Positions 11,087-24,972 of a DNA stretch of 64,000 bases are shown here, one piece after another. Position numbers and translations under genes: made by a program. Each line of letters starts with the position of its first letter. The stretch's first letter is position 1. The stretch covers positions 3,275-67,274 of the forward strand of contig DATKGN010000002.1 of NCBI GenBank assembly GCA_035510735.1, written 5' to 3'. The notes under the pieces were generated by a model, which was not told the DNA's origin, ran no database searches, and saw nothing but the letters and a program-made list of their open reading frames with translations. The DNA comes from Patescibacteria group bacterium. GTDB lineage: Bacteria > Patescibacteriota > Microgenomatia > UBA10105 > UBA927.

Positions 11087-12841
11087 ATGAAAAACGAAGA
11101 ATATCTTGATCAAATTCGACACTCGTGTAGCCACTTACTGACGGCTGCAATTGAAGCCCTTTACCCAGGTGTCAAACAAACCATCGGTCCACCGATTGAA
11201 AACGGGTTTTACCATGATTACGATTTAGGTGACATGAAAATCTCGGAAGATGATTTCCCTAAAATTGAACAAAAAATGCACGAACTCGTGAAAAATTGGA
11301 AATCGTTTGAAGGACGGGAAGAGACGGAAAAGGAAGCACTCGCACAGTTTAAGGATAACGAGTACAAACAGGAATTGATCCGGGAATTCGCGAAAGACAA
11401 GCAAAAACTGACACTCTACACCTCCGGCGGGTTTATCGATTTGTGCCACGGTGGTCACACTGCTCACCCGGACGAGGAGCTCAAATACTTTAAGCTCCTC
11501 TCGGTTGCCGGTGCCTATTGGCGGGGAAGTGAAAAGAATAAGATGCTCACGAGAATTTATGGCACGTGTTTCCCGACACAAAAAAAATTGGATGACTATC
11601 TGGCGGCCCGCAAGCTTGCTGAGGAGTCTGATCACAGGAAAATCGGCAAGGATCTCAATCTCTTCGTTTTTTCCGATCTTGTCGGCCGCGGCTTGCCGCT
11701 CTTAACCCCGAAGGGAAGTATCATCCGGCGGATTCTTGAGCGCTTCGTCGTCGATACGGAAATTGCCTGGGGCTATTCGCACGTCTATACACCGCCGATT
11801 GCCAAAACAGATCTCTACAAAACATCGGGTCACTATCCGTACTATAAAGACACGATGTATCCCGTTATGAAAGTTGATGAGGATGAACTAATCCTGCGGC
11901 CCATGACGTGCCCGCATCATTTTATGCTCTACAAAAGCTCGCCCAGGAGTTATAAAGAGCTGCCGCTTAAACTCGCTGAGATCGCGCCGCAGTTCCGGTA
12001 CGAAAAGAGCGGTGAACTCTCCGGACTTATGCGGGTCAGGACGTTCATGCTGTCGGATTCCCATATATTTACCCAAAAAGAAAAGGCAAAAGACGTCATC
12101 CTCGAGGTTATCAAGTTAATCGATTACTTAAACGGTGCCCTTGGATTCAAAAAAGGTGAGGACTACCGTTTCCGGCTGTCGTTGGGCGAACGAAACGATG
12201 AGAAAAAATATTACAAAGACGATAAAGCGTGGGATGAGGCCGAGGAAGTCCTGCGTAGCGTTCTAAAGGAAATCGACGCGCCGTACTTTGAAGCTCCTAA
12301 CGAGGCGGCATTTTACGGGCCAAAAATTGACGTCCAGATAAAAAAGGTCAACGGCCAGGAAGAAACGGCCTTCACGGTACAATATGACTTTGTCATGCCC
12401 AAGCGGTTTGAACTGACCTACACAAATGATAAAGGTGAAAAAGAAGAACCGGTCGTCATCCACAGGGCATCAATCGGCGCTCTGGAGCGAACGATGGCAT
12501 TTCTTATCGAAAAGTACAAAGGCGCCATGCCGCTGTGGCTTTCCCCGGTGCAGGTAGCGCTCATTCCTATCGCCGAGCGGCATAATGAAGCAGCCAAAAA
12601 GACAGCGGAATTTCTGCGTAAACGTGGGGTTAGGGTCGATATTGACGACCGCAGTGAGTCTATGCAGGCCAAGATTCGGTATAACACTTTACAAAAAGTC
12701 CCCTATTTAGGTATAATAGGGGATCGAGAAGCAAGTTCTGACAGCATTTCTGTGAGAACTCGGAAAGGTGAAGATCTCAAGGCAATGAGCCGTGAGATAT
12801 TTGCTGACCGTCTTGGGAGCGAGATTGAGCACAAACTTTAG
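11087..12841 (+). CDS. thrS: Threonyl-tRNA synthetase (lacks the N-terminal TGS domain)
   Basis: HSCSHLL editing-domain zinc motif, class II core, DHRKIGKDLNLF motif and a C-terminal anticodon-binding domain. The start is set at the ATG 7 nt after the SD AAGGAGG; the ORF-track start at 11066 adds only 7 codons. Confidence 0.92.
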   Translation: MKNEEYLDQIRHSCSHLLTAAIEALYPGVKQTIGPPIENGFYHDYDLGDMKISEDDFPKIEQKMHELVKNWKSFEGREETEKEALAQFKDNEYKQELIREFAKDKQKLTLYTSGGFIDLCHGGHTAHPDEELKYFKLLSVAGAYWRGSEKNKMLTRIYGTCFPTQKKLDDYLAARKLAEESDHRKIGKDLNLFVFSDLVGRGLPLLTPKGSIIRRILERFVVDTEIAWGYSHVYTPPIAKTDLYKTSGHYPYYKDTMYPVMKVDEDELILRPMTCPHHFMLYKSSPRSYKELPLKLAEIAPQFRYEKSGELSGLMRVRTFMLSDSHIFTQKEKAKDVILEVIKLIDYLNGALGFKKGEDYRFRLSLGERNDEKKYYKDDKAWDEAEEVLRSVLKEIDAPYFEAPNEAAFYGPKIDVQIKKVNGQEETAFTVQYDFVMPKRFELTYTNDKGEKEEPVVIHRASIGALERTMAFLIEKYKGAMPLWLSPVQVALIPIAERHNEAAKKTAEFLRKRGVRVDIDDRSESMQAKIRYNTLQKVPYLGIIGDREASSDSISVRTRKGEDLKAMSREIFADRLGSEIEHKL

Positions 12842-13353: not shown

Positions 13354-13551
13354 ATGCCGAAAATGAAAACCAAAAAAATAGTGAGAAAACGCTTTAAGAT
13401 TACCAAGGGCGGTAAAGTGATGCACCGGGCCCAGGGCGCACGGCATCTTCGGAGCCGCAAAAACAAAGCGCGTCAACGCCGACAGGATGAGCCGAAACAA
13501 ATTATGAACATCAAATATAGCCGGATGATTAAACGGTATTTACAAACGTAA
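13354..13551 (+). CDS. rpmI: 50S ribosomal protein L35
   Basis: MPKMKTKKIVRKRFKITKGGKVMHR... is a canonical bL35 sequence; conserved infC-rpmI-rplT order. Confidence 0.9.
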   Translation: MPKMKTKKIVRKRFKITKGGKVMHRAQGARHLRSRKNKARQRRQDEPKQIMNIKYSRMIKRYLQT

Positions 13552-13561
13552 AGGAGATTCT

Positions 13562-13912
13562 ATGAGAGTTAAACGCGGAGTCACATCACACGCAAAACAC
13601 AAAAAATTATTCGCAGCCAACAAAGGCTATCGCATGACCAAGCGCAGGCTCACCCGCGTCGCAAAGCAGGCATTTCTTCACACCGGTGAATATGCTCGTG
13701 CTGGTCGAAGGATGCGGAAGCGCGATTTCAGACAATTGTGGATTACGAGAATATCAGAGAGCGTCAAACAGAATGGATTATCCTACGGATCGTTCATCAG
13801 CAAATTGAAATCGAATAACATCGAGGTTGACCGCAAGATGCTCGCAAATCTCATTCTCGAGAATCCCGACGCATTTGTAGCAATCCTAGATAAACTCAAA
13901 ACCGTTAACTAA
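13562..13912 (+). CDS. rplT: 50S ribosomal protein L20
   Basis: MRVKRGVTSHAKHKKLFAANKGYRMTKRRLTRVAKQAF... is a canonical bL20 sequence. Confidence 0.95.
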   Translation: MRVKRGVTSHAKHKKLFAANKGYRMTKRRLTRVAKQAFLHTGEYARAGRRMRKRDFRQLWITRISESVKQNGLSYGSFISKLKSNNIEVDRKMLANLILENPDAFVAILDKLKTVN

Positions 13913-13916
13913 TCAC

Positions 13917-13961
13917 ATGGTAAAGAACGTTTTTTTCGGATTCACATTTACAACCTCCTAA
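13917..13961 (+). CDS. pheM: pheST leader peptide MVKNVFFGFTFTTS (14 aa, 4 Phe codons)
   Basis: ATG at 13917, 5 nt after the rplT stop. Codons are ATG GTA AAG AAC GTT TTT TTC GGA TTC ACA TTT ACA ACC TCC TAA. Immediately followed by antiterminator and terminator structures upstream of pheS. Too short for the ORF track. Confidence 0.6.
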   Translation: MVKNVFFGFTFTTS

Positions 13962-13996
13962 ACGGTGGGGTTTTGTGAGTCGGCAATAGAACAAAA

Positions 13997-14018
13997 CCCC
14001 GCTAGCCGGGGTTTTTTT
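13997..14018 (+). terminator. Intrinsic terminator of the pheST attenuator
   Basis: CCCCG-CTAGC-CGGGG followed by T7 (14012-14018). The upstream GGGGTTTTG (13967-75) can pair with CAAAACCCC (13992-14000), which overlaps the terminator 5' arm, to form an antiterminator. Confidence 0.7.
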
Positions 14019-14075
14019 GTACAATGAAGTCATCGCTTGCCCGTGAGTAGCTTAAAAACGTACAATAACTATATT

Positions 14076-15167
14076 GGTATGGACGATACAAAAAATATAA
14101 AGGAACACACCGAGATTATCGGTGCATCAAACATCATCGGGCTCCTTTTGGAAACCCAACAGGACGCCCTTTCTGAGATAGAACGTGCCGAGAAAAACGA
14201 AAACGATTTGCGGCTCGAATTATTGGGAGGGAAAAGCGACCTTGCGCTCCTTGCCAAAAAAATTAAGAATGTCCCCCAGGCGGACCGTGCGCAGGTAGGT
14301 ACCGTTATTAACCAGGTAAAGCAAACAATTGAATCAGCATTAAGCTCTCTGAAAGCAAGAGAATCGGTTGCAACTGGCGCCAAAACAGATTTTGACGTCA
14401 CCATGCCCGGCATTTTGCCACCTGAAGGGCACCTTCATATCGTCTCGCAAGCCATAAGCGAGATCACTCACATTTTTGAAAAAATAGGATTCAGCCGCGT
14501 ACGGCACCCTGAGGTCGACTGGGATTGGTTTGCGTTTGAATCGTTAAACATGCCGGCAAATCACCCTGCCCGCGATGAATGGGAAACGTTCTTCATCGAC
14601 TATCCAGGACGCCCCGGGCACGATCCCCACAAACAAAGGATGGCGCTCACACCGCACACGAGTAACGGTCAGGTCCGGGAAATGGGTAAAAAGGTGTTGC
14701 CTATCAGGATGATCAACATTGCAAAATGTTATCGTCGTCAATCGGATGTTTCCCACGTTCCGATGTTTCACCAGTTCGAGGGCATGTATATTGATAAAAA
14801 CGTATCCATTGGCCACCTCAAAGGATTTATTAATTTTTTTATCAAGCAATATTTCGGTCCCGATAGAAAATTCCGGCTGAGACCGTTTCACTTTCAGTTT
14901 ACCGAACCGTCATTTGAAGTAGACATATCCTGTGATGTGTGCAAAGGACGTGGCTGCAGGCTATGCAAAGAAGGATGGCTTGAGCTTGCAGGTTCCGGCA
15001 TGATTCACCCTAATGTACTAAGAAACGGCGGGATTGACCCGAATCAGTATAACGGATTTGCCATCGGATGGGGAGTGGAACGGACCTATATGATGAAAGC
15101 AGGAACAAGGCTTGATGATATCCGGCTTTTATACAGTAATGACATCCGATTCTTGGAGCAATTTTAG
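14076..15167 (+). CDS. pheS: Phenylalanyl-tRNA synthetase alpha subunit
   Basis: Class II aaRS motifs (FRLRPFHFQFTEPSFEVD, GWLELAGSGMIHPNVL, GFAIGWGVERT). First ATG taken at 14076; the ORF track begins at an upstream TTG (14037). Confidence 0.9.
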   Translation, partial: GMDDTKNIKEHTEIIGASNIIGLLLETQQDALSEIERAEKNENDLRLELLGGKSDLALLAKKIKNVPQADRAQVGTVINQVKQTIESALSSLKARESVATGAKTDFDVTMPGILPPEGHLHIVSQAISEITHIFEKIGFSRVRHPEVDWDWFAFESLNMPANHPARDEWETFFIDYPGRPGHDPHKQRMALTPHTSNGQVREMGKKVLPIRMINIAKCYRRQSDVSHVPMFHQFEGMYIDKNVSIGHLKGFINFFIKQYFGPDRKFRLRPFHFQFTEPSFEVDISCDVCKGRGCRLCKEGWLELAGSGMIHPNVLRNGGIDPNQYNGFAIGWGVERTYMMKAGTRLDDIRLLYSNDIRFLEQF

Positions 15168-15224
15168 TTCGGTTTGTCATTTTCATGTAGGCGGGAATCG
15201 GTTTTACTTGCGTAAAGAAAGATG

Positions 15225-15245
15225 ATCCCCGATCAAGTCGGGGAT
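15225..15245 (+). other. Perfect GC-rich hairpin ATCCCCGA-tcaag-TCGGGGAT between pheS and pheT, no U-tract
   Basis: 8-bp perfect stem with a 5-nt loop, 15 nt upstream of the pheT ATG. The arms resemble the two hairpins at 28842-28908. Confidence 0.4.
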
Positions 15246-15260
15246 GACAGGAAAAAACAT

Positions 15261-17291
15261 ATGAATATATTAGTACCTGACAATTGGCTAAGAAGCTTTG
15301 TAAAAACGAAGGCCACAGCGCGGAAAATTAAGGAGTATTTATCGCTGTGCGGTCCGTCTGTCGAACGGATAAACGGGACGGGGAAAGACATCGTTTACGA
15401 TATAGAGATCACCACCAACAGGCCTGACGCCATGAGTGTCGTCGGCGTTGCACGTGAGGCTGCCGCGATTTTACCCCGCTTCGGTATTGGGGCAACACTT
15501 ATTAATGATCCCTATAAACTTGATGTTAAAAAATTCGTTGAAACCCACAAACGAGAAGGCGCAAAACGCCTGGAGATAACGACAAACGCTGATCTTAATC
15601 CCAGGTGGACATCCATCGTGCTAACCGGCGTAAAAATCGGACCATCGCCCGACTGGCTTAAGGAAAACCTCGAAGCATCCGGGATTCGATCACTTAATTC
15701 GGTCGTTGATATAACAAATTATCTTATGCGCGCATATGGTCAGCCGGCTCATGCATTTGATTTCGACCGCATCCGGATCGACGATATCACGGCGGTTATG
15801 AAACTGCGCGCGAGCCGCAAAGGCGAAACACTCACGACGCTCGACGGCAAGAAACATACGCTTCCGGGCGGCGACATCGTCATTGAGGACGGAAAAGGAA
15901 GACTTATTGACCTCGCCGGCATCATGGGCGGGCAAAACAGCAGCATTACGGACAAAACAACAACCGTCATTCTCTTCATGCAAACGTATAACCCTGTAAC
16001 TATCAGACGCACATCCATGGCGCTCGCTCACAGGACAGAAGCTTCCTCACTTTTTGAAAAAGGCCATGACAGTGAGCTCGTGCTTCCGGCAATCACAAGG
16101 GGAGTTGAGCTGTTAAAAGAACTTACCGGAGCGCAAACGGGAAGTAAATTGTATGATATCTATCCGTCTCCCTATAAACCATACCCGGTCACCGTCTCAA
16201 AAGCGAAAACGTTCGCGTATATCGGAAACGTATTAACTGACGGCGATATCGAACACATGCTCAAACCGCTTGGATTTACAACCAAACTCAATAAAACTGA
16301 AATTACCGCTCTTGTCCCGAGCTGGCGGAGTGACATTCAAATAGACGTTGATGTTATCGAGGAGGTTGCACGGATGTTCGGCTATCACAATATTACGCCA
16401 CGACTCCCTGAGACCGAACCGCCGATCGTAATACCTGACTCAACGCTCTTCTGGGAACAGGAAATAAAAATCAGATTGAGGGATTGGGGCTTCACGGAGC
16501 TATACACGTATTCAATGATCTCAGAGAATCAAATGGATATATTCGGCCTTGATACATCCAAAGCGTATAAAATTGCCAATCCGCTTTCGCAAGAATGGGT
16601 CTATATGCGGCCGAGCCTTTGGCCGAGCGTCCTTGCGTCAGTCCGTGAGAATCTCCATGTTACACAGTCACTCAAATTATTCGAATTGAGCCAGACGTAT
16701 CACTATCGGGAATATGAACTACCTGCGGAAGCGCCCACGCTCCTTGTGGCGTTTACCGGACACAAATTTCTCGAAGCAAAAGGCGTTGCGCAGGCATTAT
16801 TCACTATGTTTGGCATTCCGTTTCCGGCCACTCCGTCAATACATGATGAATATCCAAAAGATTGGACCGATGAAAAACAATTCTCCTTGGACAAATACGG
16901 CATAATCTGTGAAGTGCGAAAACAACTTCTCGGGATGGTCAGCATTACGCTGCCGGTTACCATCCTTGAACTCCATATTGATGAGCTCGTTAAACACGCC
17001 CACCCGATACCGACATATCTTCCCATTCCCAAATTCCCTCCGGCAGTCGAAGATCTTGCATTCATCGTCCCTTCGGGGTTTGCGGTCGGACCACTTACGG
17101 AAACCCTGAAAAAAGTCAGTAAATTAATTTATCGCGTAACCTTACTTGATGCACATAATGATACACGGACGTTTCATATTGAATATCTGGACCGCGATAA
17201 GAATTTAACAAGCGAAGATATACGGCCAGTGCGTGAAAAACTCATTGCAGCGGCCCGCAGCGCGTACGGAGTCGAATTAAAAACCGCATGA
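15261..17291 (+). CDS. pheT: Phenylalanyl-tRNA synthetase beta subunit
   Basis: Starts MNILVPDNWLRSFVK (classic PheT N-terminus) and contains B3/B4, B5 and anticodon-binding-like regions. The ORF-track start 15222 is an upstream extension. Confidence 0.9.
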   Translation: MNILVPDNWLRSFVKTKATARKIKEYLSLCGPSVERINGTGKDIVYDIEITTNRPDAMSVVGVAREAAAILPRFGIGATLINDPYKLDVKKFVETHKREGAKRLEITTNADLNPRWTSIVLTGVKIGPSPDWLKENLEASGIRSLNSVVDITNYLMRAYGQPAHAFDFDRIRIDDITAVMKLRASRKGETLTTLDGKKHTLPGGDIVIEDGKGRLIDLAGIMGGQNSSITDKTTTVILFMQTYNPVTIRRTSMALAHRTEASSLFEKGHDSELVLPAITRGVELLKELTGAQTGSKLYDIYPSPYKPYPVTVSKAKTFAYIGNVLTDGDIEHMLKPLGFTTKLNKTEITALVPSWRSDIQIDVDVIEEVARMFGYHNITPRLPETEPPIVIPDSTLFWEQEIKIRLRDWGFTELYTYSMISENQMDIFGLDTSKAYKIANPLSQEWVYMRPSLWPSVLASVRENLHVTQSLKLFELSQTYHYREYELPAEAPTLLVAFTGHKFLEAKGVAQALFTMFGIPFPATPSIHDEYPKDWTDEKQFSLDKYGIICEVRKQLLGMVSITLPVTILELHIDELVKHAHPIPTYLPIPKFPPAVEDLAFIVPSGFAVGPLTETLKKVSKLIYRVTLLDAHNDTRTFHIEYLDRDKNLTSEDIRPVREKLIAAARSAYGVELKTA

Positions 17292-21168: not shown

Positions 21169-21249
21169 ATGAAAACACAAAGCAACCAACAGTATTACTT
21201 TTATTTTACTCCATCCCTTGGAGGGGCTGCTCTTGTGGCACATACCTAA
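21169..21249 (+). CDS. Aromatic-pathway leader peptide MKTQSNQQYYFYFTPSLGGAALVAHT (26 aa; run of Tyr-Tyr-Phe-Tyr-Phe codons)
   Basis: ATG at 21169. Five consecutive aromatic codons TAT TAC TTT TAT TTT at 21193-21207. The peptide stops 24 nt before an intrinsic terminator that precedes the DAHP synthase gene. Confidence 0.6.
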   Translation: MKTQSNQQYYFYFTPSLGGAALVAHT

Positions 21250-21273
21250 ATAAAAGTATCGATCCACACTGAA

Positions 21274-21296
21274 CCCCGCCAAGGCGGGGTTTTTTT
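21274..21296 (+). terminator. Intrinsic terminator of the aromatic-operon attenuator
   Basis: CCCCGCC-aa-GGCGGGG then T7. No upstream co-directional gene, so it is not an operon-end terminator. The leader segment CCCTTGGAGGGG (21213-27) can pair with either terminator arm (antiterminator). Confidence 0.7.
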
Positions 21297-21381
21297 GTGG
21301 CTTAGTGGTTATTTAGCGAGTCGAGTCATCGAGACAAGCTTAATAACCACAATCCAGCAAAGCTGGATACATTAAAGATAT

Positions 21382-22146
21382 ATGAACATAAAAACAAAAT
21401 GCAAAAAACCAATAATTATCGCCGGTCCCTGTGCCGCCGAATCGAAAGCGCAAATCGCGTTGTCCCTGCGCGAGGCCAAAAAACGGGCTATCGACTTCGT
21501 GCGCATCAGCCTCTGGAAACCAAGGACCAAACCCGGATTTGAGGGCCTGGGATTTCGAGGAATTGACCTTCTCATTGAGGCCGCACGACTCGGCCTTTCC
21601 CCTGCCACTGAAGTCATTCTGCCTGAGCAGGCCCGCGCCGTCATGGATGCGGTATTAGGTGAAGTGCCGGAGACACGGCTCATGCTCTGGATTGGCGCGC
21701 GCAATCAAAATCACTACATCCAAAGGGAAATTGCGCGTGTTGCAGCGTCCGATAAGCGGGTCCTGCTGATGGTTAAAAACCAACCGTGGAGCAATGAGGA
21801 TCACTGGGAAGGCATTGTCGGACATGTATTAAGCGGTGGAATCGATAAGGCCCGCGTAATTCTCTGTCACCGTGGTTTTATACCCAACGGCGTTAATCCA
21901 TTCGGATACAAAAACGTGCCTGATTATGAGATGGCGATGAGAATAAAACATACATCAGGGTTACCAATGATATTTGACCCATCGCACACAGGCGGAACTG
22001 TTGATAAAGTTTTGCAAATTATGGACGAGGCCATGAAGCATGAGTTTGACGGGATTATCGTTGAGGTGCATCCCGATCCGACTCATGCGCTCACGGATGC
22101 GAAGCAACAATTGACATGGAAGGAATTTGATCAATTACGCGTATGA
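21382..22146 (+). CDS. aroG: 3-deoxy-7-phosphoheptulonate (DAHP) synthase, type I-beta (KDO8PS-like fold)
   Basis: IIAGPCAAES and the (beta/alpha)8 DAHPS/KDO8PS family signature, with no regulatory extension. First gene of the shikimate operon. Confidence 0.8.
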   Translation: MNIKTKCKKPIIIAGPCAAESKAQIALSLREAKKRAIDFVRISLWKPRTKPGFEGLGFRGIDLLIEAARLGLSPATEVILPEQARAVMDAVLGEVPETRLMLWIGARNQNHYIQREIARVAASDKRVLLMVKNQPWSNEDHWEGIVGHVLSGGIDKARVILCHRGFIPNGVNPFGYKNVPDYEMAMRIKHTSGLPMIFDPSHTGGTVDKVLQIMDEAMKHEFDGIIVEVHPDPTHALTDAKQQLTWKEFDQLRV

Positions 22147-23237
22147 ATACAATTATTTTGAACCAATCACAAAAAGAAAAAACTCAGGCGTGCCCGATTA
22201 TCATCGGGAATAATCTTGTGGGGAAAATTAATACGCTTTTTGACCTGTCCGTGTTTTCCCGGATAGTGGTTGTTACGGATACCAATACCGAGCGGCTCTT
22301 CCTTAAAACGCTTCTTTGTGCACTGCCAAAAAGTGCAGCGCGTGTCGTGTTACCCACGGGCGAGAAAGAAAAGAATTTCAAAAACGTTCAAAAAATATTG
22401 ATTGCGATGCACAAGGCATATTGTGATAGGGATACTCTCGTTATCAATCTTGGCGGCGGGGTCGTGAGCGATATCGGAGGATTTGCCGCAAGCATATTTA
22501 TGCGGGGCGTAAGTATACTCAACATTCCGACAACATTGCTTGCCCAGGCGGACGCAAGTATCGGAGGCAAAACCGGCATCAACTTTTTGGGAATTAAGAA
22601 TCTTGTTGGGACGTTTGCCCAACCGATAGGCGTCGTTATTGATGTGACAACGTTGCGGTCGCTTCCGGGGCGTGAATTGATCTCAGGGTTTGCCGAAATA
22701 ATTAAACACGGGCTCGTTGCTAATCGCACATTATTTCATTTAGCAACGTGCAAAACACCGCGGGATTTTACGAATAATAAACTCATCGCTATTATCACCA
22801 AATCATGCCGGGTAAAGGCCGACATCGTGAGTTGCGATCATACGGAACAACACGAGCGGAAACTCCTTAATTTCGGCCATACGATCGGACATGCCGTAGA
22901 AGCATTAAGCCAAACGTCCGTAAATCCCATTCTCCACGGAGAAGCGGTTGTCATCGGTATGATGGTCGAGGCAAAAATTTCAGAGCTCTCCGGTCTCCTG
23001 TCGCAAACCTCATGTTCTGTTATCGAAGAAGCTCTTACTTCACTTCCATTACCCAAATTACCGGAAGTAATACCGATTCAGAACATCATGGATGTGATCC
23101 GGTCGGATAAAAAAAGTAAAAACGGAATTATTCAGTGGACGCTCTTAACGGAAATCGGCAAAGGAATAATTAATCAGGTTGTCTGCGATAACACAGTTAT
23201 TGCAGCACTCAAACAAACGAAAGGAATAATCGTATGA
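22143..23237 (+). CDS. aroB: 3-dehydroquinate synthase
   Basis: NAD-binding GGGVVSDIGGFAAS motif and metal-binding NFGHTIGHAVE motif. Confidence 0.9.
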   Translation: MNTIILNQSQKEKTQACPIIIGNNLVGKINTLFDLSVFSRIVVVTDTNTERLFLKTLLCALPKSAARVVLPTGEKEKNFKNVQKILIAMHKAYCDRDTLVINLGGGVVSDIGGFAASIFMRGVSILNIPTTLLAQADASIGGKTGINFLGIKNLVGTFAQPIGVVIDVTTLRSLPGRELISGFAEIIKHGLVANRTLFHLATCKTPRDFTNNKLIAIITKSCRVKADIVSCDHTEQHERKLLNFGHTIGHAVEALSQTSVNPILHGEAVVIGMMVEAKISELSGLLSQTSCSVIEEALTSLPLPKLPEVIPIQNIMDVIRSDKKSKNGIIQWTLLTEIGKGIINQVVCDNTVIAALKQTKGIIV

Positions 23238-23668
23238 AAATATTAGTCGTCAATGGACCGAATTTGAATTTATTGGGTAAGCGCGATCACTCAAAGTACG
23301 GAACGATAACGCTTGGCCAACTCAATAACCAACTCAATCGTATAGCCAAAGAAACCGGCGTCAGTCTGACGTTTTTCCAATCGAATCACGAGGGAGCCAT
23401 TATTGATTTTCTCCAAAAAGATGCATCACGGGATGCGGACGGCGTCCTTATCAATCCGGGTGCTCTTGTGCGATACGGTTGGTCTTTGCGTCAAGCGCTC
23501 ATTGATCTTGGAAAACCGATTGTTGAAGTGCATATGTCTGACATTAATAGCACCGGCGTCAATAAAGCGGTTAACGTATTAGAAGGTATTCGCATAGATC
23601 AAATTGTCGGGTTAAAAGAGCAAAGTTACGAGTTGGGTCTTAAAAAATTATTACAAATAATTCTATGA
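23234..23668 (+). CDS. aroQ: 3-dehydroquinate dehydratase, type II
   Basis: MKILVVNGPNLNLLGKRD...INPGAL...HMSDI is the type II DHQase pattern. Confidence 0.9.
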   Translation: MKILVVNGPNLNLLGKRDHSKYGTITLGQLNNQLNRIAKETGVSLTFFQSNHEGAIIDFLQKDASRDADGVLINPGALVRYGWSLRQALIDLGKPIVEVHMSDINSTGVNKAVNVLEGIRIDQIVGLKEQSYELGLKKLLQIIL

Positions 23669-24972
23669 ACTTACACGTCCTACCGGCACAATCAATAAAA
23701 GGGGAAGTGGCAATGCCAAGAAGTAAAACCCACTCATTCAGGGCGCTCGTTCTTGCGGCCCTTGCAGATGGCACATCGACTATCCGAAAGCCCAAAATAA
23801 GTAATGATTGGAATATCGCAGTGGGTGGACTTCAACAGTTCGGCGCAACGATTAAAGAAACAGAGCCGAATGTCTTTCGTGTCACCGGCGTCGGGGGCAA
23901 TCTGCAAACCCCCAAGGAAGTTATTCATGTCGGAAACTCGGGGACGATGCTCTTCTTCCTCGCGGGTGTTGCAGCCGCTTGTCCGGGTATTTCTATCATC
24001 ACGGGGGATGAATCGATTAGATTACTGAGGATAATATCACGAAATCTATTTCAACCGTTTGAAGAACTCGGCGTGAGCATTACCTCGTCAAAGAATGACG
24101 GTATGGCCCCGCTCATCATCAAGGGGAACGTGAACGGTGGAGTCGCGCATATGGACGGCACCGGTTGCCAGCCCGTATTCAGCATTCTTATCGCGTCGGC
24201 CCTTTCATCAAAACCTGTTGAACTATTCGTTACAAGCCCGGGTGAAACGGCGTATATTGATTTACTTCTATTCTGGTTCAAAAAGGCAGGGATTGAGTGT
24301 CAAAACGTCGGGGGGACCCACTCGCATTATGTTTTTCCGGGAAACCAGCTGGCCAAAGCGTTCGATGAAACAATACCGCTCGAATGGTCAGCCTCCGCGT
24401 ATCCGCTTCTTGCGGCTCTTATTCTGCCGAATTCAAAAATGACGGTAAAGAATATGGACTTTGCCGATCCGTATGGAGATAAATTTGTTATCGATGTTCT
24501 GCGGCAAATGGGCGGAGACATTAGAGTGCATGATGGTAACCTGACTGCACAATCAAGCAGGCTTCATGGCATTGAAGTCGACATGAATCTGCTCCCTGAT
24601 CAAGTGCCCACGGTTGCGGTTGCCGCGTGTTTTGCGAAAGGAGCAACTGTTATCACAAATGCGCTAACAGCCCGATGGAAAGAGTGCGACCGTATTTCGG
24701 CTATTTGCAAGGAACTTAAAAAAATGGGAGCCGATATTCGCGAAAAGAGCGACGGACTCGTCATCCATGGCATCGAGGGAAAGAACATGCACGGCGCATC
24801 CATTGACGGTCATAAGGATCATCGTATGGTTTTGTCGTTAGCTGTCGCGGGAATGCAAGCCACTGGGGAAACAGTAATCACAGATGCCGAGATGGTCGAA
24901 AAATCATTTGAGACATTTATCCCGGACATGACACATGCAGGTGCTCTATTTGCACTGAAGGAGAGAACATGA
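23665..24972 (+). CDS. aroA: 3-phosphoshikimate 1-carboxyvinyltransferase (EPSP synthase)
   Basis: 435 aa with MPRSKTHSFRALVLAALADG...GNSGTMLFFLAG... and the EPSPS two-domain architecture. Confidence 0.9.
   Translation: MNLHVLPAQSIKGEVAMPRSKTHSFRALVLAALADGTSTIRKPKISNDWNIAVGGLQQFGATIKETEPNVFRVTGVGGNLQTPKEVIHVGNSGTMLFFLAGVAAACPGISIITGDESIRLLRIISRNLFQPFEELGVSITSSKNDGMAPLIIKGNVNGGVAHMDGTGCQPVFSILIASALSSKPVELFVTSPGETAYIDLLLFWFKKAGIECQNVGGTHSHYVFPGNQLAKAFDETIPLEWSASAYPLLAALILPNSKMTVKNMDFADPYGDKFVIDVLRQMGGDIRVHDGNLTAQSSRLHGIEVDMNLLPDQVPTVAVAACFAKGATVITNALTARWKECDRISAICKELKKMGADIREKSDGLVIHGIEGKNMHGASIDGHKDHRMVLSLAVAGMQATGETVITDAEMVEKSFETFIPDMTHAGALFALKERT

What the first reader, a model, noticed from the sequence alone, without database searches (positions are those of the whole stretch)
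13913..14036. pheM-like Phe-rich leader peptide attenuator upstream of pheST
Five nt after the rplT stop a 14-codon ORF MVKNVFFGFTFTTS contains 4 Phe codons. The segment GGGGTTTTG (13967-75) can pair with CAAAACCCC (13992-14000), which overlaps the 5' arm of a strong terminator (CCCCG-CTAGC-CGGGG-T7) placed ~60 nt before pheS. A ribosome that reaches the stop codon would cover GGGGTTTTG and allow termination. A ribosome stalled at the Phe codons leaves it free to form the antiterminator. This architecture is the same as the E. coli pheST attenuator. Monoderm lineages usually use T-box leaders for pheST, so a leader-peptide mechanism here is notable. It also pairs with the second aromatic-codon attenuator in the window.
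Basis: seen in the sequence. Interest (0 to 1): 0.65.

Follow-up and report, generated by a model that had tools for sequence, protein, structure and literature searches.

The report
Phenylalanine leader-peptide attenuator before pheST
Between the ribosomal protein gene rplT and the phenylalanyl-tRNA synthetase genes of this uncultured Microgenomates (candidate phyla radiation) bacterium lies a 14-codon, phenylalanine-rich mini-gene with a switchable RNA terminator, the E. coli way of sensing phenylalanine supply, apparently not described before in this group.

Summary
rplT stops at 13910-12. Four bases later an ORF (ATG 13917 to TAA 13959-61) encodes MVKNVFFGFTFTTS, with 4 Phe codons.

Segment 13964-76 can pair over 13 bp with 13991-14003. 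That second segment contains the 5' arm of the terminator (stem 13993-14015, T-run to 14018).

Constrained folding gives the three classical states:
- Free RNA forms 1:2 plus the terminator.
- A ribosome at the Phe codons allows the antiterminator.
- A ribosome at the stop codon allows only the terminator.

The genome belongs to Patescibacteria (Microgenomates, Gottesmanbacteria-like). Fifty distinct related loci carry a Phe-rich mini-ORF with an antiterminator and terminator at the same place. Helix sequences change in concert between lineages (0 of 5000 permutations reach the observed complementarity).

No T-box was found. The Rfam Phe_leader match is below threshold.

Two things differ from E. 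coli pheM. The leader has no promoter or Shine-Dalgarno sequence of its own and abuts the rplT stop, which suggests translational coupling. A conserved -10-like box just upstream of pheS suggests a second, independent promoter, so the attenuator probably gates only read-through.

This is a known mechanism in a new lineage with a coupling variant. Nothing has been tested experimentally.

The parts
13562..13912 (+). rplT (ribosomal protein L20), last gene of the thrS-infC-rpmI-rplT cluster. Its TAA stop is at 13910-12.
   Evidence: NCBIfam TIGR01032 rplT_bact, 117.8 bits against a cut-off of 65.65. ORF list.
13917..13961 (+). Leader ORF of 14 codons plus stop, encoding MVKNVFFGFTFTTS. It starts 4 nt after the rplT stop and has no Shine-Dalgarno sequence.
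   Evidence: Sequence. Chance 0.3%. Homologous position and design in 50 distinct relatives.
13932..13949 (+). Regulatory Phe codons: TTT TTC at 13932-37, TTC at 13941-43, TTT at 13947-49.
   Evidence: Sequence. Across 50 leaders Phe makes up 22% of codons in frame 0, against 9.7% and 13.4% TTY in the other two frames.
13939..13959 (+). Segment 1 (anti-antiterminator strand). It lies inside the 3' half of the leader ORF and pairs with segment 2 in free RNA.
   Evidence: MFE of free RNA.
13964..13981 (+). Segment 2. Bases 13964-76 (GGTGGGGTTTTGT) form the 5' arm of the antiterminator. It starts 2 nt after the leader stop codon.
   Evidence: Constrained folds. Shuffle test z = -3.6.
13991..14003 (+). 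Segment 3 (ACAAAACCCCGCT). It pairs with segment 2 as a 13-bp antiterminator, or with segment 4 as the terminator.
13993..14018 (+). Intrinsic terminator: 9-bp stem AAAACCCCG / CGGGGTTTT with a 5-nt loop, and a T-run at 14012-18.
   Evidence: The scan reports the same hairpin on the minus strand.
14018..14025 (+). TGTACAAT, a -10-like box abutting the terminator T-run. It is a possible promoter for pheS.
   Evidence: The motif occurs 4 times in the window, 3 times between genes and once at the thrS start.
14037..14066 (+). TTGCCC-18-TACAAT, a promoter-like site. The -10 box ends 12 nt before the pheS ATG.
   Evidence: Promoter scan, 9 of 12 matches. TA[ACT]AAT lies within 40 nt of the pheS ATG in 76 of 157 loci, against 4.4% of random windows.
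14079..15167 (+). pheS (phenylalanine--tRNA ligase alpha subunit). The likely start is ATG 14079. The in-frame TTG at 14037 is unlikely to be the start.
   Evidence: NCBIfam TIGR00468, 251.3 bits against a cut-off of 237.45. Read by eye: the N-termini of relatives fit a start at 14079, and all window/L001 differences between 14037 and 14078 would be non-synonymous.
15222..17291 (+). pheT (phenylalanine--tRNA ligase beta subunit).
   Evidence: NCBIfam TIGR00472, 437.1 bits against a cut-off of 402.65.

Best explanation
This is a classical ribosome-mediated (leader-peptide) transcription attenuator that responds to charged tRNA-Phe. It sits at the end of the thrS-infC-rpmI-rplT transcription unit and gates read-through into pheST.

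Proposed sequence of events:
1. RNA polymerase leaves rplT and transcribes about 100 nt of leader.
2. A ribosome that has just finished rplT (stop at 13910-12) most likely re-initiates at ATG 13917 and translates 14 codons. This step is inferred.
3. When Phe-tRNA is plentiful, the ribosome reaches the stop at 13959-61. Its footprint, about 12 nt downstream, covers segment 2 (13964-76). Segment 3 then pairs with segment 4, and the terminator (13993-14015 plus U7) releases the transcript.
4. When Phe-tRNA is scarce, the ribosome stalls on the Phe codons (13932-49). It covers segment 1 (13939-59) but leaves segment 2 free. Segment 2 pairs with segment 3 (13 bp, -20 kcal/mol) before segment 4 is made, the terminator cannot form, and transcription continues into pheS-pheT.
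5. With no translation at all, 1:2 and 3:4 form and transcription terminates.

Shown here: the sequence elements, the three mutually exclusive fold states, and their conservation and covariation in relatives.

Inferred, not shown: that the ORF is translated, that it is coupled to rplT, that the response is to Phe, and how much read-through contributes relative to a probable pheS-proximal promoter.
For: Anatomy and fold states:
- Free RNA forms 1:2 plus the terminator (-31.9 kcal/mol).
- With a ribosome masked at the Phe codons, a 13-bp antiterminator forms and stays the MFE even at full length (-20.0 to -25.4).
- With a ribosome at the stop codon, only the terminator forms (-14).
- The 12-nt ribosome reach is taken from PMC4833913.

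Chance: the ORF has probability 0.3%. The antiterminator gives z = -3.6, with 0 of 300 shuffles reaching it.

Gene identity: the neighbours are rplT, pheS and pheT.

Comparative evidence:
- The same design occurs after rplT or before pheS in 58 Microgenomates loci, 50 of them distinct. Leaders have a median of 19 codons and 4 Phe.
- Of 328 terminator-like sites in the genome-set loci and the window, 44 have a Phe-rich ORF upstream, and 21 of those are at this one position.
- Antiterminator median z is -3.9 for 20 leaders and -3.55 for 28.
- Segments 2, 3 and 4 change in concert between lineages (GCGGGG/CCCCGC, GGAGG/CCUCC, GGGAG/CUCCC, GGAGA/UCUCC). Within a sequence, 6.3 of 7 positions pair; across sequences, 4.6 of 7. 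None of 5000 permutations reach the observed value.

A paralogous YYFYF leader precedes the aro operon in the same window. A covariance model built without window sequences scores it 40.6 bits, E = 3e-5.

Coupling: the leader ATG lies -4 to +19 nt from the upstream stop in 45 of 47 cases, including 11 ATGA overlaps. Only 4 of 50 leaders have an SD-like motif.

No T-box or any other Rfam family reaches threshold, either here or at 20 relatives' pheS loci.
Against: - There is no experimental evidence. The organism is uncultured.
- The leader has no SD and no recognisable promoter of its own, so its translation is inferred.
- -10-like boxes between the terminator and pheS (14018-25, 14061-66) suggest that pheS is also, perhaps mainly, transcribed independently.
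- pheS itself has no obvious SD, so it is uncertain how well read-through transcripts would be translated.
- The closest relative, L001 (90% PheS identity), has lost one Phe codon. Its antiterminator is weakened (z = -1.5).
- The covariance model of the core family scores this leader only 19.2 bits, E = 0.44. That is no better than its score for the E. coli pheM region, 21.5 bits. Sequence homology to the core family is therefore unproven.
- Support from the other 49 leaders is partly by analogy of position and design.
- The loci were selected for having at least 3 Phe, which inflates the frame-0 statistic.
- The whole-region fold z is only -1.58.
Confidence: 0.8

Rival explanations
1. It is a plain intrinsic terminator of the rplT operon followed by an independent pheS promoter. 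The Phe-rich ORF and the upstream complementarity are by-products of U-rich, G-rich terminator-flanking sequence and do nothing.
For: - -10-like boxes lie directly after the T-run (TGTACAAT, 14018-25) and 12 nt before the pheS ATG (TACAAT, 14061-66, with TTGCCC 18 nt upstream).
- The motif is enriched before pheS in 76 of 157 loci, against 4.4% of random windows and 15% of other genes.
- The hairpin has an A-tract and a T-tract, like a bidirectional terminator.
- L001 shows some decay of the Phe codons and the antiterminator.
Against: - An open ATG-started ORF with 3-6 Phe codons is kept at this position in 50 distinct sequences, although the nucleotide sequence diverges.
- Antiterminator complementarity is far above shuffled controls and tracks lineage-specific terminator sequences.
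- In several relatives the terminator is followed by an SD and a gene with no -10 box. That gene can only be expressed by read-through.
- An independent promoter is compatible with an attenuator and does not replace it.
Confidence: 0.07
2. It is a general sensor of transcription-translation coupling, not specific for Phe. Any delay of the ribosome finishing rplT and the mini-ORF leaves the antiterminator free, so pheST read-through reports overall translation capacity.
For: - In 7 of 10 related loci without a mini-ORF, the antiterminator 5' arm starts 0-3 nt after, or overlaps, the rplT stop codon (z from -2.3 to -5.7).
- In L084 and L101 the arm lies in the last rplT codons. There the only ORF available to sense translation is rplT.
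- The window leader has no initiation signals of its own.
Against: - The window element does have a separate ORF. Its 4 Phe codons in 14 sit exactly where stalling frees segment 2 and covers segment 1.
- Phe enrichment is family-wide at 22% of codons.
- The downstream genes are the Phe-tRNA ligase.
- The paralogue before the aro operon carries Tyr and Phe codons.
Confidence: 0.08
3. The mini-ORF encodes a functional small hydrophobic peptide, and the hairpins are ordinary mRNA structure.
For: The core family keeps a recognisable peptide pattern, M-T-T-Q-K...FFFTS..GGSLG.
Against: - The conserved C-terminal residues are encoded by the very nucleotides that form helices 1:2 and 2:3 (ACCTCGC...GCGGGG..CTTTGGGT).
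- Length varies from 11 to 28 codons, and the stop codon moves relative to the helices.
- The window peptide shares only the Phe-rich core.
- Between the window and L001, substitutions are non-synonymous at non-Phe positions.
Confidence: 0.02
4. It is a trans-factor-controlled antiterminator, through tRNA binding as in a T-box or protein binding such as L20 feedback, rather than a ribosome-controlled one.
For: pheST is T-box-controlled in Firmicutes (PMC1262725). L20 autoregulates its operon through RNA structures in E. coli and Bacillus (own knowledge).
Against: - No T-box, L20_leader or other Rfam family reaches threshold in the window or in 20 relatives' loci.
- The leader is only about 100 nt, too short for a T-box.
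- The conserved in-frame Phe codons have no role in such models.
Confidence: 0.03

Closest known systems
E. coli pheM, the pheST-ihfA operon leader peptide and attenuator (b1715, NC_000913.3 1799226-1799270)
   Same: - It lies between rplT and pheS in the same thrS-infC-rpmI-rplT-pheST gene order.
- It is a 14-codon leader ([14 protein letters not shown], 5 Phe, against MVKNVFFGFTFTTS, 4 Phe).
- Segment 2 is a copy of the terminator 3' arm and sits a few nt after the leader stop (7 nt in E. coli, 2-3 nt here).
- It is followed by a GC-rich hairpin and a U-run.
   Different: - E. coli has a separate rplT terminator and a promoter in the 121 nt between rplT and pheM, plus an SD-like AAGG before pheM. 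These elements were read by eye from the sequence and from my own knowledge; annotates genes only. Here the leader starts 4 nt after the rplT stop with neither.
- The E. coli terminator lies about 215 nt before pheS. Here it lies 60 nt before, with -10-like boxes in between.
- There is no demonstrable sequence homology. The covariance model of the Microgenomates family scores the E. coli element 21.5 bits, driven by U-rich codons and the terminator.
Rfam RF01859 Phe_leader. By its consensus peptide this appears to be the enterobacterial pheL leader of pheA; that reading is my own, not something the tool states.
   Same: The full-length alignment (model positions 1-125) covers 13916-14021 and aligns the ATG, the Phe-codon run, the CCUCCUAA region and the terminator.
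   Different: The score is 24.2 bits against a gathering threshold of 55, with E = 0.03-0.14 in small searches. It is not a member by Rfam's criterion. The regulated gene is a tRNA ligase, not a biosynthetic enzyme.
Classical attenuators upstream of aminoacyl-tRNA synthetase genes in Streptomyces (trpS, leuS), from Seliverstov et al. 2005, PMC1262725
   Same: This is leader-peptide attenuation controlling an aaRS gene outside the gamma-proteobacteria.
   Different: The amino acid, the genes and the phylum differ. Those leaders were described upstream of the regulated gene; their relation to a preceding gene was not checked here.
T-box riboswitch upstream of pheS in Firmicutes
   Same: It has the same regulatory goal, sensing tRNA-Phe charging to control pheST by transcription antitermination.
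   Different: It uses a different sensor, direct tRNA binding rather than a translating ribosome. No T-box was detected here or in relatives.
Microgenomates pheST/aro leader family, defined here by covariance model R1
   Same: It has the same position (after rplT or a small inserted gene, before pheS) and the same four-segment design. The aro-operon leader in this window (21169-21297) is a clear member at 40.6 bits.
   Different: The pheST leader of this window and of L001 is a divergent short form. Its stop codon falls in the 1:2 hairpin loop and it has no TTTGGGT/ACCCAA helix. It scores only 19.2 bits, E = 0.44.

Membership tests
Classical leader-peptide (ribosome-mediated) transcription attenuator | Short ORF enriched in codons for the cognate amino acid | tested here: met
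   4 Phe in 14 codons. 0.3% of dinucleotide shuffles reach this. The feature is conserved in 50 distinct relatives with a median of 4 Phe.
Classical leader-peptide (ribosome-mediated) transcription attenuator | Intrinsic terminator between the leader ORF and the regulated genes | tested here: met
   9-bp stem at 13993-14015 plus U7, 60 nt before pheS.
Classical leader-peptide (ribosome-mediated) transcription attenuator | Antiterminator helix mutually exclusive with the terminator | tested here: met
   13 bp between 13964-76 and 13991-14003, -20.0 kcal/mol, z = -3.6. It co-varies with the terminator across the family; 0 of 5000 permutations reach the observed value.
Classical leader-peptide (ribosome-mediated) transcription attenuator | Segment 1 inside the ORF pairs with segment 2. 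A stalled ribosome covers segment 1, and a ribosome at the stop codon covers segment 2. | tested here: met
   The 1:2 helix joins 13939-59 and 13964-81 in free RNA. Segment 2 starts 2 nt after the stop. Constrained folds give the three expected states.
Classical leader-peptide (ribosome-mediated) transcription attenuator | The leader is translated, and termination responds to charged tRNA level | not testable with these tools
   This needs term-seq, ribosome profiling or reporter assays.
E. coli-type pheM attenuator | Located between rplT and pheS, with a leader of about 14 codons and a run of Phe codons | tested here: met
E. coli-type pheM attenuator | The leader is the first cistron of its own transcription unit: a promoter and ribosome-binding site of its own, with the rplT terminator upstream | tested here: not met
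   Only 4 nt separate the rplT stop from the ATG. There is no SD, and no promoter-like site on the + strand between 12717 and 14037. Across the family, 45 of 47 leaders lie within -4 to +19 nt of the upstream stop.
E. coli-type pheM attenuator | Detectable sequence or structure homology | tested here: inconclusive
   Model R1 scores E. coli pheM 21.5 bits and the window leader 19.2 bits. Both scores are explained by generic features.
Rfam RF01859 Phe_leader | Score at or above the gathering threshold of 55 bits | tested here: not met
   24.2 bits. There is no hit at gathering threshold.
T-box riboswitch (RF00230) | Match to the T-box covariance model upstream of the aaRS gene | tested here: not met
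   No Rfam family reaches gathering threshold in the 64-kb window or in 20 relatives' pheS loci. No T-box appears among sub-threshold hits either.
   The pheST leader at 13917-14019 scores 19.2 bits, E = 0.44, with exact end-to-end boundaries. The aro leader at 21169-21297 scores 40.6 bits, E = 2.8e-5.

The most novel reading that the evidence does not exclude
The leader may be translated only by ribosomes that have just terminated on rplT, through termination and re-initiation. The spacing is 4 nt here and an ATGA overlap in 11 relatives, and there is almost never an SD.

If so, the attenuator needs no promoter, no ribosome-binding site and no pause-synchronisation of its own. It would combine two signals, translation of the ribosomal-protein operon and tRNA-Phe charging, to set read-through into pheST on top of a constitutive pheS-proximal promoter.

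In related genomes the mini-ORF has been lost or fused, and rplT itself acts as the sensing ORF.

The family would then be direct sequence-level evidence that tight transcription-translation coupling operates in CPR bacteria.
Probability: 0.45. Interest if true: 0.65.

Novelty: new variant of a known kind. Interest (0 to 1): 0.5.

Why it matters
Almost nothing is known about gene regulation in candidate phyla radiation bacteria, which are mostly uncultured.

A conserved leader-peptide attenuator would show four things:
1. These small-genome organisms regulate an aminoacyl-tRNA synthetase operon, and through a paralogue the shikimate pathway, in response to amino-acid supply.
2. They do so with the ribosome-sensing solution known from proteobacteria and actinobacteria, not with the T-box solution of Firmicutes.
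3. Their ribosomes must follow RNA polymerase closely, because this mechanism only works with coupled transcription and translation.
4. A leader ORF can be driven by translational coupling to the preceding ribosomal protein gene instead of by its own start signals.

The 50 sequence variants collected here give a ready-made covariation set. They also provide a compact element that could be tested in E. coli or in cell-free systems.

Tried and rejected
- **Rfam at gathering threshold:** nothing on the whole window or on 20 relatives' loci. The T-box, L20_leader and other curated leaders are rejected.
- **Rfam at relaxed E-value:** only sub-threshold hits. Phe_leader scored 24.2 bits. The asX2, rnk and Leu_leader hits come from the terminator alone. 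Not membership.
- **Whole-region MFE significance:** z = -1.58, uninformative for a switch.
- **MAFFT plus RNAalifold on 13 core leaders:** only 10 pairs were recovered, because loop-length differences put the helices out of register.
- **CM-based realignment:** it did not fix the register. I therefore extracted the helix strands per sequence from folds and used cross-sequence permutation as the control. That alignment is fitted to the structure, so the permutation result, not the percentage paired, is the evidence.
- **The built-in terminator scan** did not list the + strand terminator, because it counts the A-U extension as stem and then finds too few T after it. My own scan with the T-run counted from the last G-C pair finds it.
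- **TTG 14037 as the pheS start:** rejected by eye. All window/L001 differences in 14037-14078 would be non-synonymous, and the N-termini of relatives fit ATG 14079.
- **The minus-strand ORF 13905-14033 (42 aa):** treated as spurious. It has no support.
- **Metagenome scan for closer relatives of this particular leader variant:** it found none with upstream sequence. L137 is a truncated AlaX-PheS fusion.
- **Literature searches** for leader-peptide attenuation or T-boxes in CPR/Patescibacteria returned nothing relevant.
Full report
**1. What is in the sequence**

The window carries thrS (about 11087-12841), infC (to 13349), rpmI (13354-13551), rplT (13562-13912), pheS (14079-15167) and pheT (15222-17291). 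All six score at or near the curated NCBIfam cut-offs; rpmI, at 46.4 bits against 51.2, falls just short.

The rplT stop codon is TAA at 13910-12. After four bases (TCAC), an ATG at 13917 opens a 14-codon ORF, MVKNVFFGFTFTTS, ending with TAA at 13959-61. Phe codons lie at 13932-37, 13941-43 and 13947-49.

So is the terminator: CCCCG-CTAGC-CGGGG followed by T7, extended by A-U pairs to a 9-bp stem at 13993-14015. The T-run ends 60 nt before the pheS ATG.

**2. Is it more than chance?**

- An ATG ORF of 8-35 codons with at least 4 Phe appears in 0.3% of 20,000 dinucleotide shuffles of 13913-13992.
- Only 7 of 549 small ATG ORFs in the whole window have at least 4 Phe.
- Only two strong + strand terminators exist in the 64 kb, this one and one at 21271-21292.
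- The stability of the whole region is unremarkable (z = -1.58). That is expected for a switch and is not evidence either way.

**3. Alternative structures**

I masked the RNA up to 12 nt downstream of the A-site codon. That reach is taken from PMC4833913. Folding then gives three states:

- **Free RNA.** Segment 1 (13939-59, inside the ORF) pairs with segment 2 (13964-81), and the terminator forms (-31.9 kcal/mol).
- **Ribosome at any Phe codon.** Segment 2 (13964-76) pairs over 13 bp with segment 3 (13991-14003). This sequesters the whole 5' arm of the terminator (-20.0 to -25.4 kcal/mol) and remains the minimum-energy fold even when segment 4 is present.
- **Ribosome at the stop codon.** Segment 2 is covered and only the terminator forms (-14 kcal/mol).

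Shuffling the spacer gives -10.4 +/- 2.6 kcal/mol against the observed -20.0 (z = -3.6, 0 of 300 shuffles). This is the full logic of a classical attenuator.

**4. Whose genome is it?**

PheS relatives in the species-representative genome collection are Patescibacteria MAGs of the Microgenomates group: Gottesmanbacteria, Woesebacteria and Amesbacteria. The best match, L001, is 90% identical. Records titled 'uncultured Gammaproteobacteria' in the same list are evidently mislabelled bins.

rplT lies upstream of pheS on the same strand in 48 of 80 loci.

**5. Comparative test**

*Occurrence.* In the genome set I found a Phe-rich mini-ORF followed by a terminator, after rplT or directly before pheS, in 28 loci besides the window. 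A scan of metagenome contigs added 30 of 80 loci. Together these are 58 loci and 50 distinct sequences. Leaders have a median of 19 codons (range 11-28) and a median of 4 Phe (range 3-6). Phe makes up 22% of codons in frame, against 9.7% and 13.4% TTY in the other two frames. That last comparison is inflated by my selection criterion.

*Specificity of position.* Across all genome-set loci and the window, both strands, 328 terminator-like sites exist. Of these, 44 have a Phe-rich ORF upstream, and 21 of the 44 are at this single position. The rest are mostly weak hairpins antisense to coding sequence.

*Close relatives.* Among the 22 closest PheS relatives, 20 have the leader.

*Antiterminator.* Complementarity exceeds shuffled spacers with median z = -3.9 in 20 genome-set leaders and -3.55 in 28 metagenome leaders, 89% of which fall below -2.

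*Covariation.* The helix sequences differ between lineages and change together. Segments 2, 3 and 4 read GCGGGG/CCCCGC/GCGGGG, GGAGG/CCUCC/GGAGG, GGGAG/CUCCC/GGGAG, GGAGA/UCUCC/GGAGAG, and UGGGGUU/AACCCCG/CGGGGUU in the window. Within a sequence, 6.3 of 7 positions pair in 2:3 and 6.9 of 7 in 3:4. When partners are exchanged between sequences, the values drop to 4.6 and 4.9. None of 5000 permutations reach the observed value. These strands were extracted from folds, so the percentage paired is biased. The permutation contrast is the evidence.

**6. Limits of the comparative support for this particular copy**

A covariance model built from 13 core relatives, with no window sequence, finds the window leader end to end (13917-14019) but at only 19.2 bits, E = 0.44. 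L001 scores 19.3 bits. The same model scores the E. coli pheM attenuator 21.5 bits. Such scores therefore reflect generic features: the ATG, the U-rich codons and the terminator.

The window/L001 form is a short, divergent variant. Its stop codon falls in the 1:2 hairpin loop. L001 has lost one Phe codon (TTC to TCC), and its antiterminator is weakened by two non-compensated changes (z = -1.5). The window copy itself is intact.

**7. What it is not**

No Rfam family reaches gathering threshold in the window or in 20 relatives' pheS loci, so there is no T-box and no L20 leader.

The only suggestive sub-threshold hit is RF01859 Phe_leader, by my reading the enterobacterial pheA leader. It scores 24.2 bits against a threshold of 55, with a full-length alignment over 13916-14021. 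This is a resemblance, not membership.

**8. Comparison with E. coli pheM**

Shared features:
- The same gene order.
- The same 14-codon length.
- Segment 2 is a copy of the terminator 3' arm just after the leader stop.

Differences:
- In E. coli, 121 nt with a terminator and a promoter separate rplT from pheM, and pheM has an SD-like AAGG. I read these from the sequence and from my own knowledge; the record annotates genes only.
- In the window the leader starts 4 nt after the rplT stop, with no SD and no promoter-like site upstream.

The second difference is a family property. The leader ATG lies -4 to +19 nt from the stop of the upstream gene in 45 of 47 cases. Eleven of those are ATGA overlaps, for example L120, L134 and L158. 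Only 4 of 50 leaders have an SD-like motif.

I infer that the leader is translated by ribosomes terminating on rplT, or on a small gene inserted after it. This would also keep the sensing ribosome close to the polymerase.

**9. A probable second promoter**

TGTACAAT abuts the T-run at 14018-25. TTGCCC-18-TACAAT ends 12 nt before the pheS ATG.

- TGTACAAT occurs four times in the window, three times between genes and once at the thrS start.
- TA[ACT]AAT lies within 40 nt of the pheS ATG in 76 of 157 loci, against 4.4% of random windows and 15% of other long ORFs. The preferred spacing is 6-12 nt.

So pheS very likely also has a proximal promoter giving a short-leader or leaderless mRNA.

It does not meet the other half, since the terminator is not merely a terminator.

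The most economical reading is basal pheST transcription from the proximal promoter plus Phe-responsive read-through from the strongly expressed rplT operon. In several relatives the terminator is followed at 10-25 nt by AAAGGAGGTGAT plus an ATG of a small gene, with no -10 box. There, read-through is the only route to expression.

An open point is that pheS in the window has no obvious SD. How well read-through transcripts are translated is therefore unknown.

**10. Literature**

Full-text searches found no report of leader-peptide attenuation, attenuators or T-boxes in CPR/Patescibacteria.

Classical attenuators before aaRS genes are documented for gamma-proteobacterial pheST and for Streptomyces trpS and leuS. 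Firmicutes use T-boxes (PMC1262725).

**11. Verdict**

The element works like the E. coli pheST attenuator. It meets every sequence-level criterion of a classical leader-peptide attenuator.

It is not a member of any curated RNA family. It differs from pheM in being joined to rplT without start signals of its own, and in being followed by a probable pheS promoter.

It is a known mechanism in a lineage where it apparently had not been described, with a coupling variant that rests on inference. Translation of the leader, the response to Phe and the share of read-through remain untested. Confidence in the mechanism is 0.8 and interest is 0.5.

Noticed in passing
window 21169-21299 (+), upstream of 21382-24972: A second leader ORF, MKTQSNQQYYFYFTPSLGGAALVAHT (ATG 21169, stop 21247-49), is followed by the terminator GAACCCCGCCAAGGCGGGG plus a T-run (stem 21271-92). 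It lies downstream of a TTGCAC-17-TATAAT promoter-like site (about 21127-55, read by eye) and upstream of the DAHP synthase-aroB-aroQ-aroA operon. Model R1, built from relatives' pheST leaders, scores it 40.6 bits (E = 3e-5). It is a paralogue of the pheST leader family with Tyr/Phe codons. In equilibrium folds its terminator always wins. Its antiterminator was not analysed in detail.
   Followed up: partly
L026, L029, L048, L056, L059, L064, L069 (first 60 nt after rplT); L084 1230-1320; L101 2380-2470: These Microgenomates loci have no Phe mini-ORF but keep an antiterminator. Its 5' arm starts 0-3 nt after, overlaps, or lies in the last codons of rplT (z from -2.3 to -5.7 against shuffled spacers). 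This suggests that rplT itself acts as the sensing ORF and that read-through into pheS reports ribosome arrival.
   Followed up: partly
window 14018-25, 14060-66, 11067-74, 2833-40, 25566-73; the pheS upstream regions of 157 loci: TGTACAAT/TACAAT boxes lie 6-16 nt upstream of start codons (pheS, probably thrS). This suggests extended -10 promoters that give leaderless or very short-leader mRNAs in this lineage. Enrichment before pheS is 48%, against 4.4% in random windows.
   Followed up: partly
L002, L004, L006, L007, L010, L013, L014, L016, L018, L019, L022, L062, L137: In many relatives PheS is a fusion of about 600 aa. Its N-terminal domain of about 250 aa (…IFYPQGGGQPSD…HSAGH…HEAV…) looks like an AlaX / tRNA_SAD editing domain. 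PheS in the window is unfused. No domain search was run on these.
   Followed up: no
L003 2510-2833, L005 2625-2849, L011 2657-2878, L006 398-604, L007 1541-1810, L009 2012-2173, L017 2270-2533: A small gene that looks coiled-coil (…DWL.GKY..HEEEHTLLNGKVSEHSD…) is inserted between rplT and the leader. The leader ATG then overlaps or abuts this gene's stop, with ATGA overlaps in L005 and L011.
   Followed up: no
L007 1961-2212, L009 2315-2920, L010 1919-2158, L016 1841-2128, L017 2701-2949, L018 1915-2139, L045 2695-2922, L066 2601-2867, L068 2603-2902: Unrelated small hypothetical genes, some Cys-rich, sit directly after the attenuator terminator. They have a strong AAAGGAGGTGAT ribosome-binding site and no -10 box, so they would be expressed only by Phe-dependent read-through. 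Their function is unknown.
   Followed up: no
Record titles of L001, L003-L007, L009-L012 and others: Many of the closest genomes are titled 'MAG TPA_asm: uncultured Gammaproteobacteria bacterium (binchicken…)'. Yet their PheS, RplT and leader sequences cluster with Patescibacteria/Gottesmanbacteria MAGs. The titles look like mislabels.
   Followed up: no
window 12688-12717 (+): The best sigma-70-like match in the region (TTTACA-18-TATAAT, 11 of 12) lies inside the 3' end of thrS, just upstream of infC. This is where E. coli has its infC promoters (own knowledge). It is a candidate origin of the transcripts that reach the attenuator.
   Followed up: no
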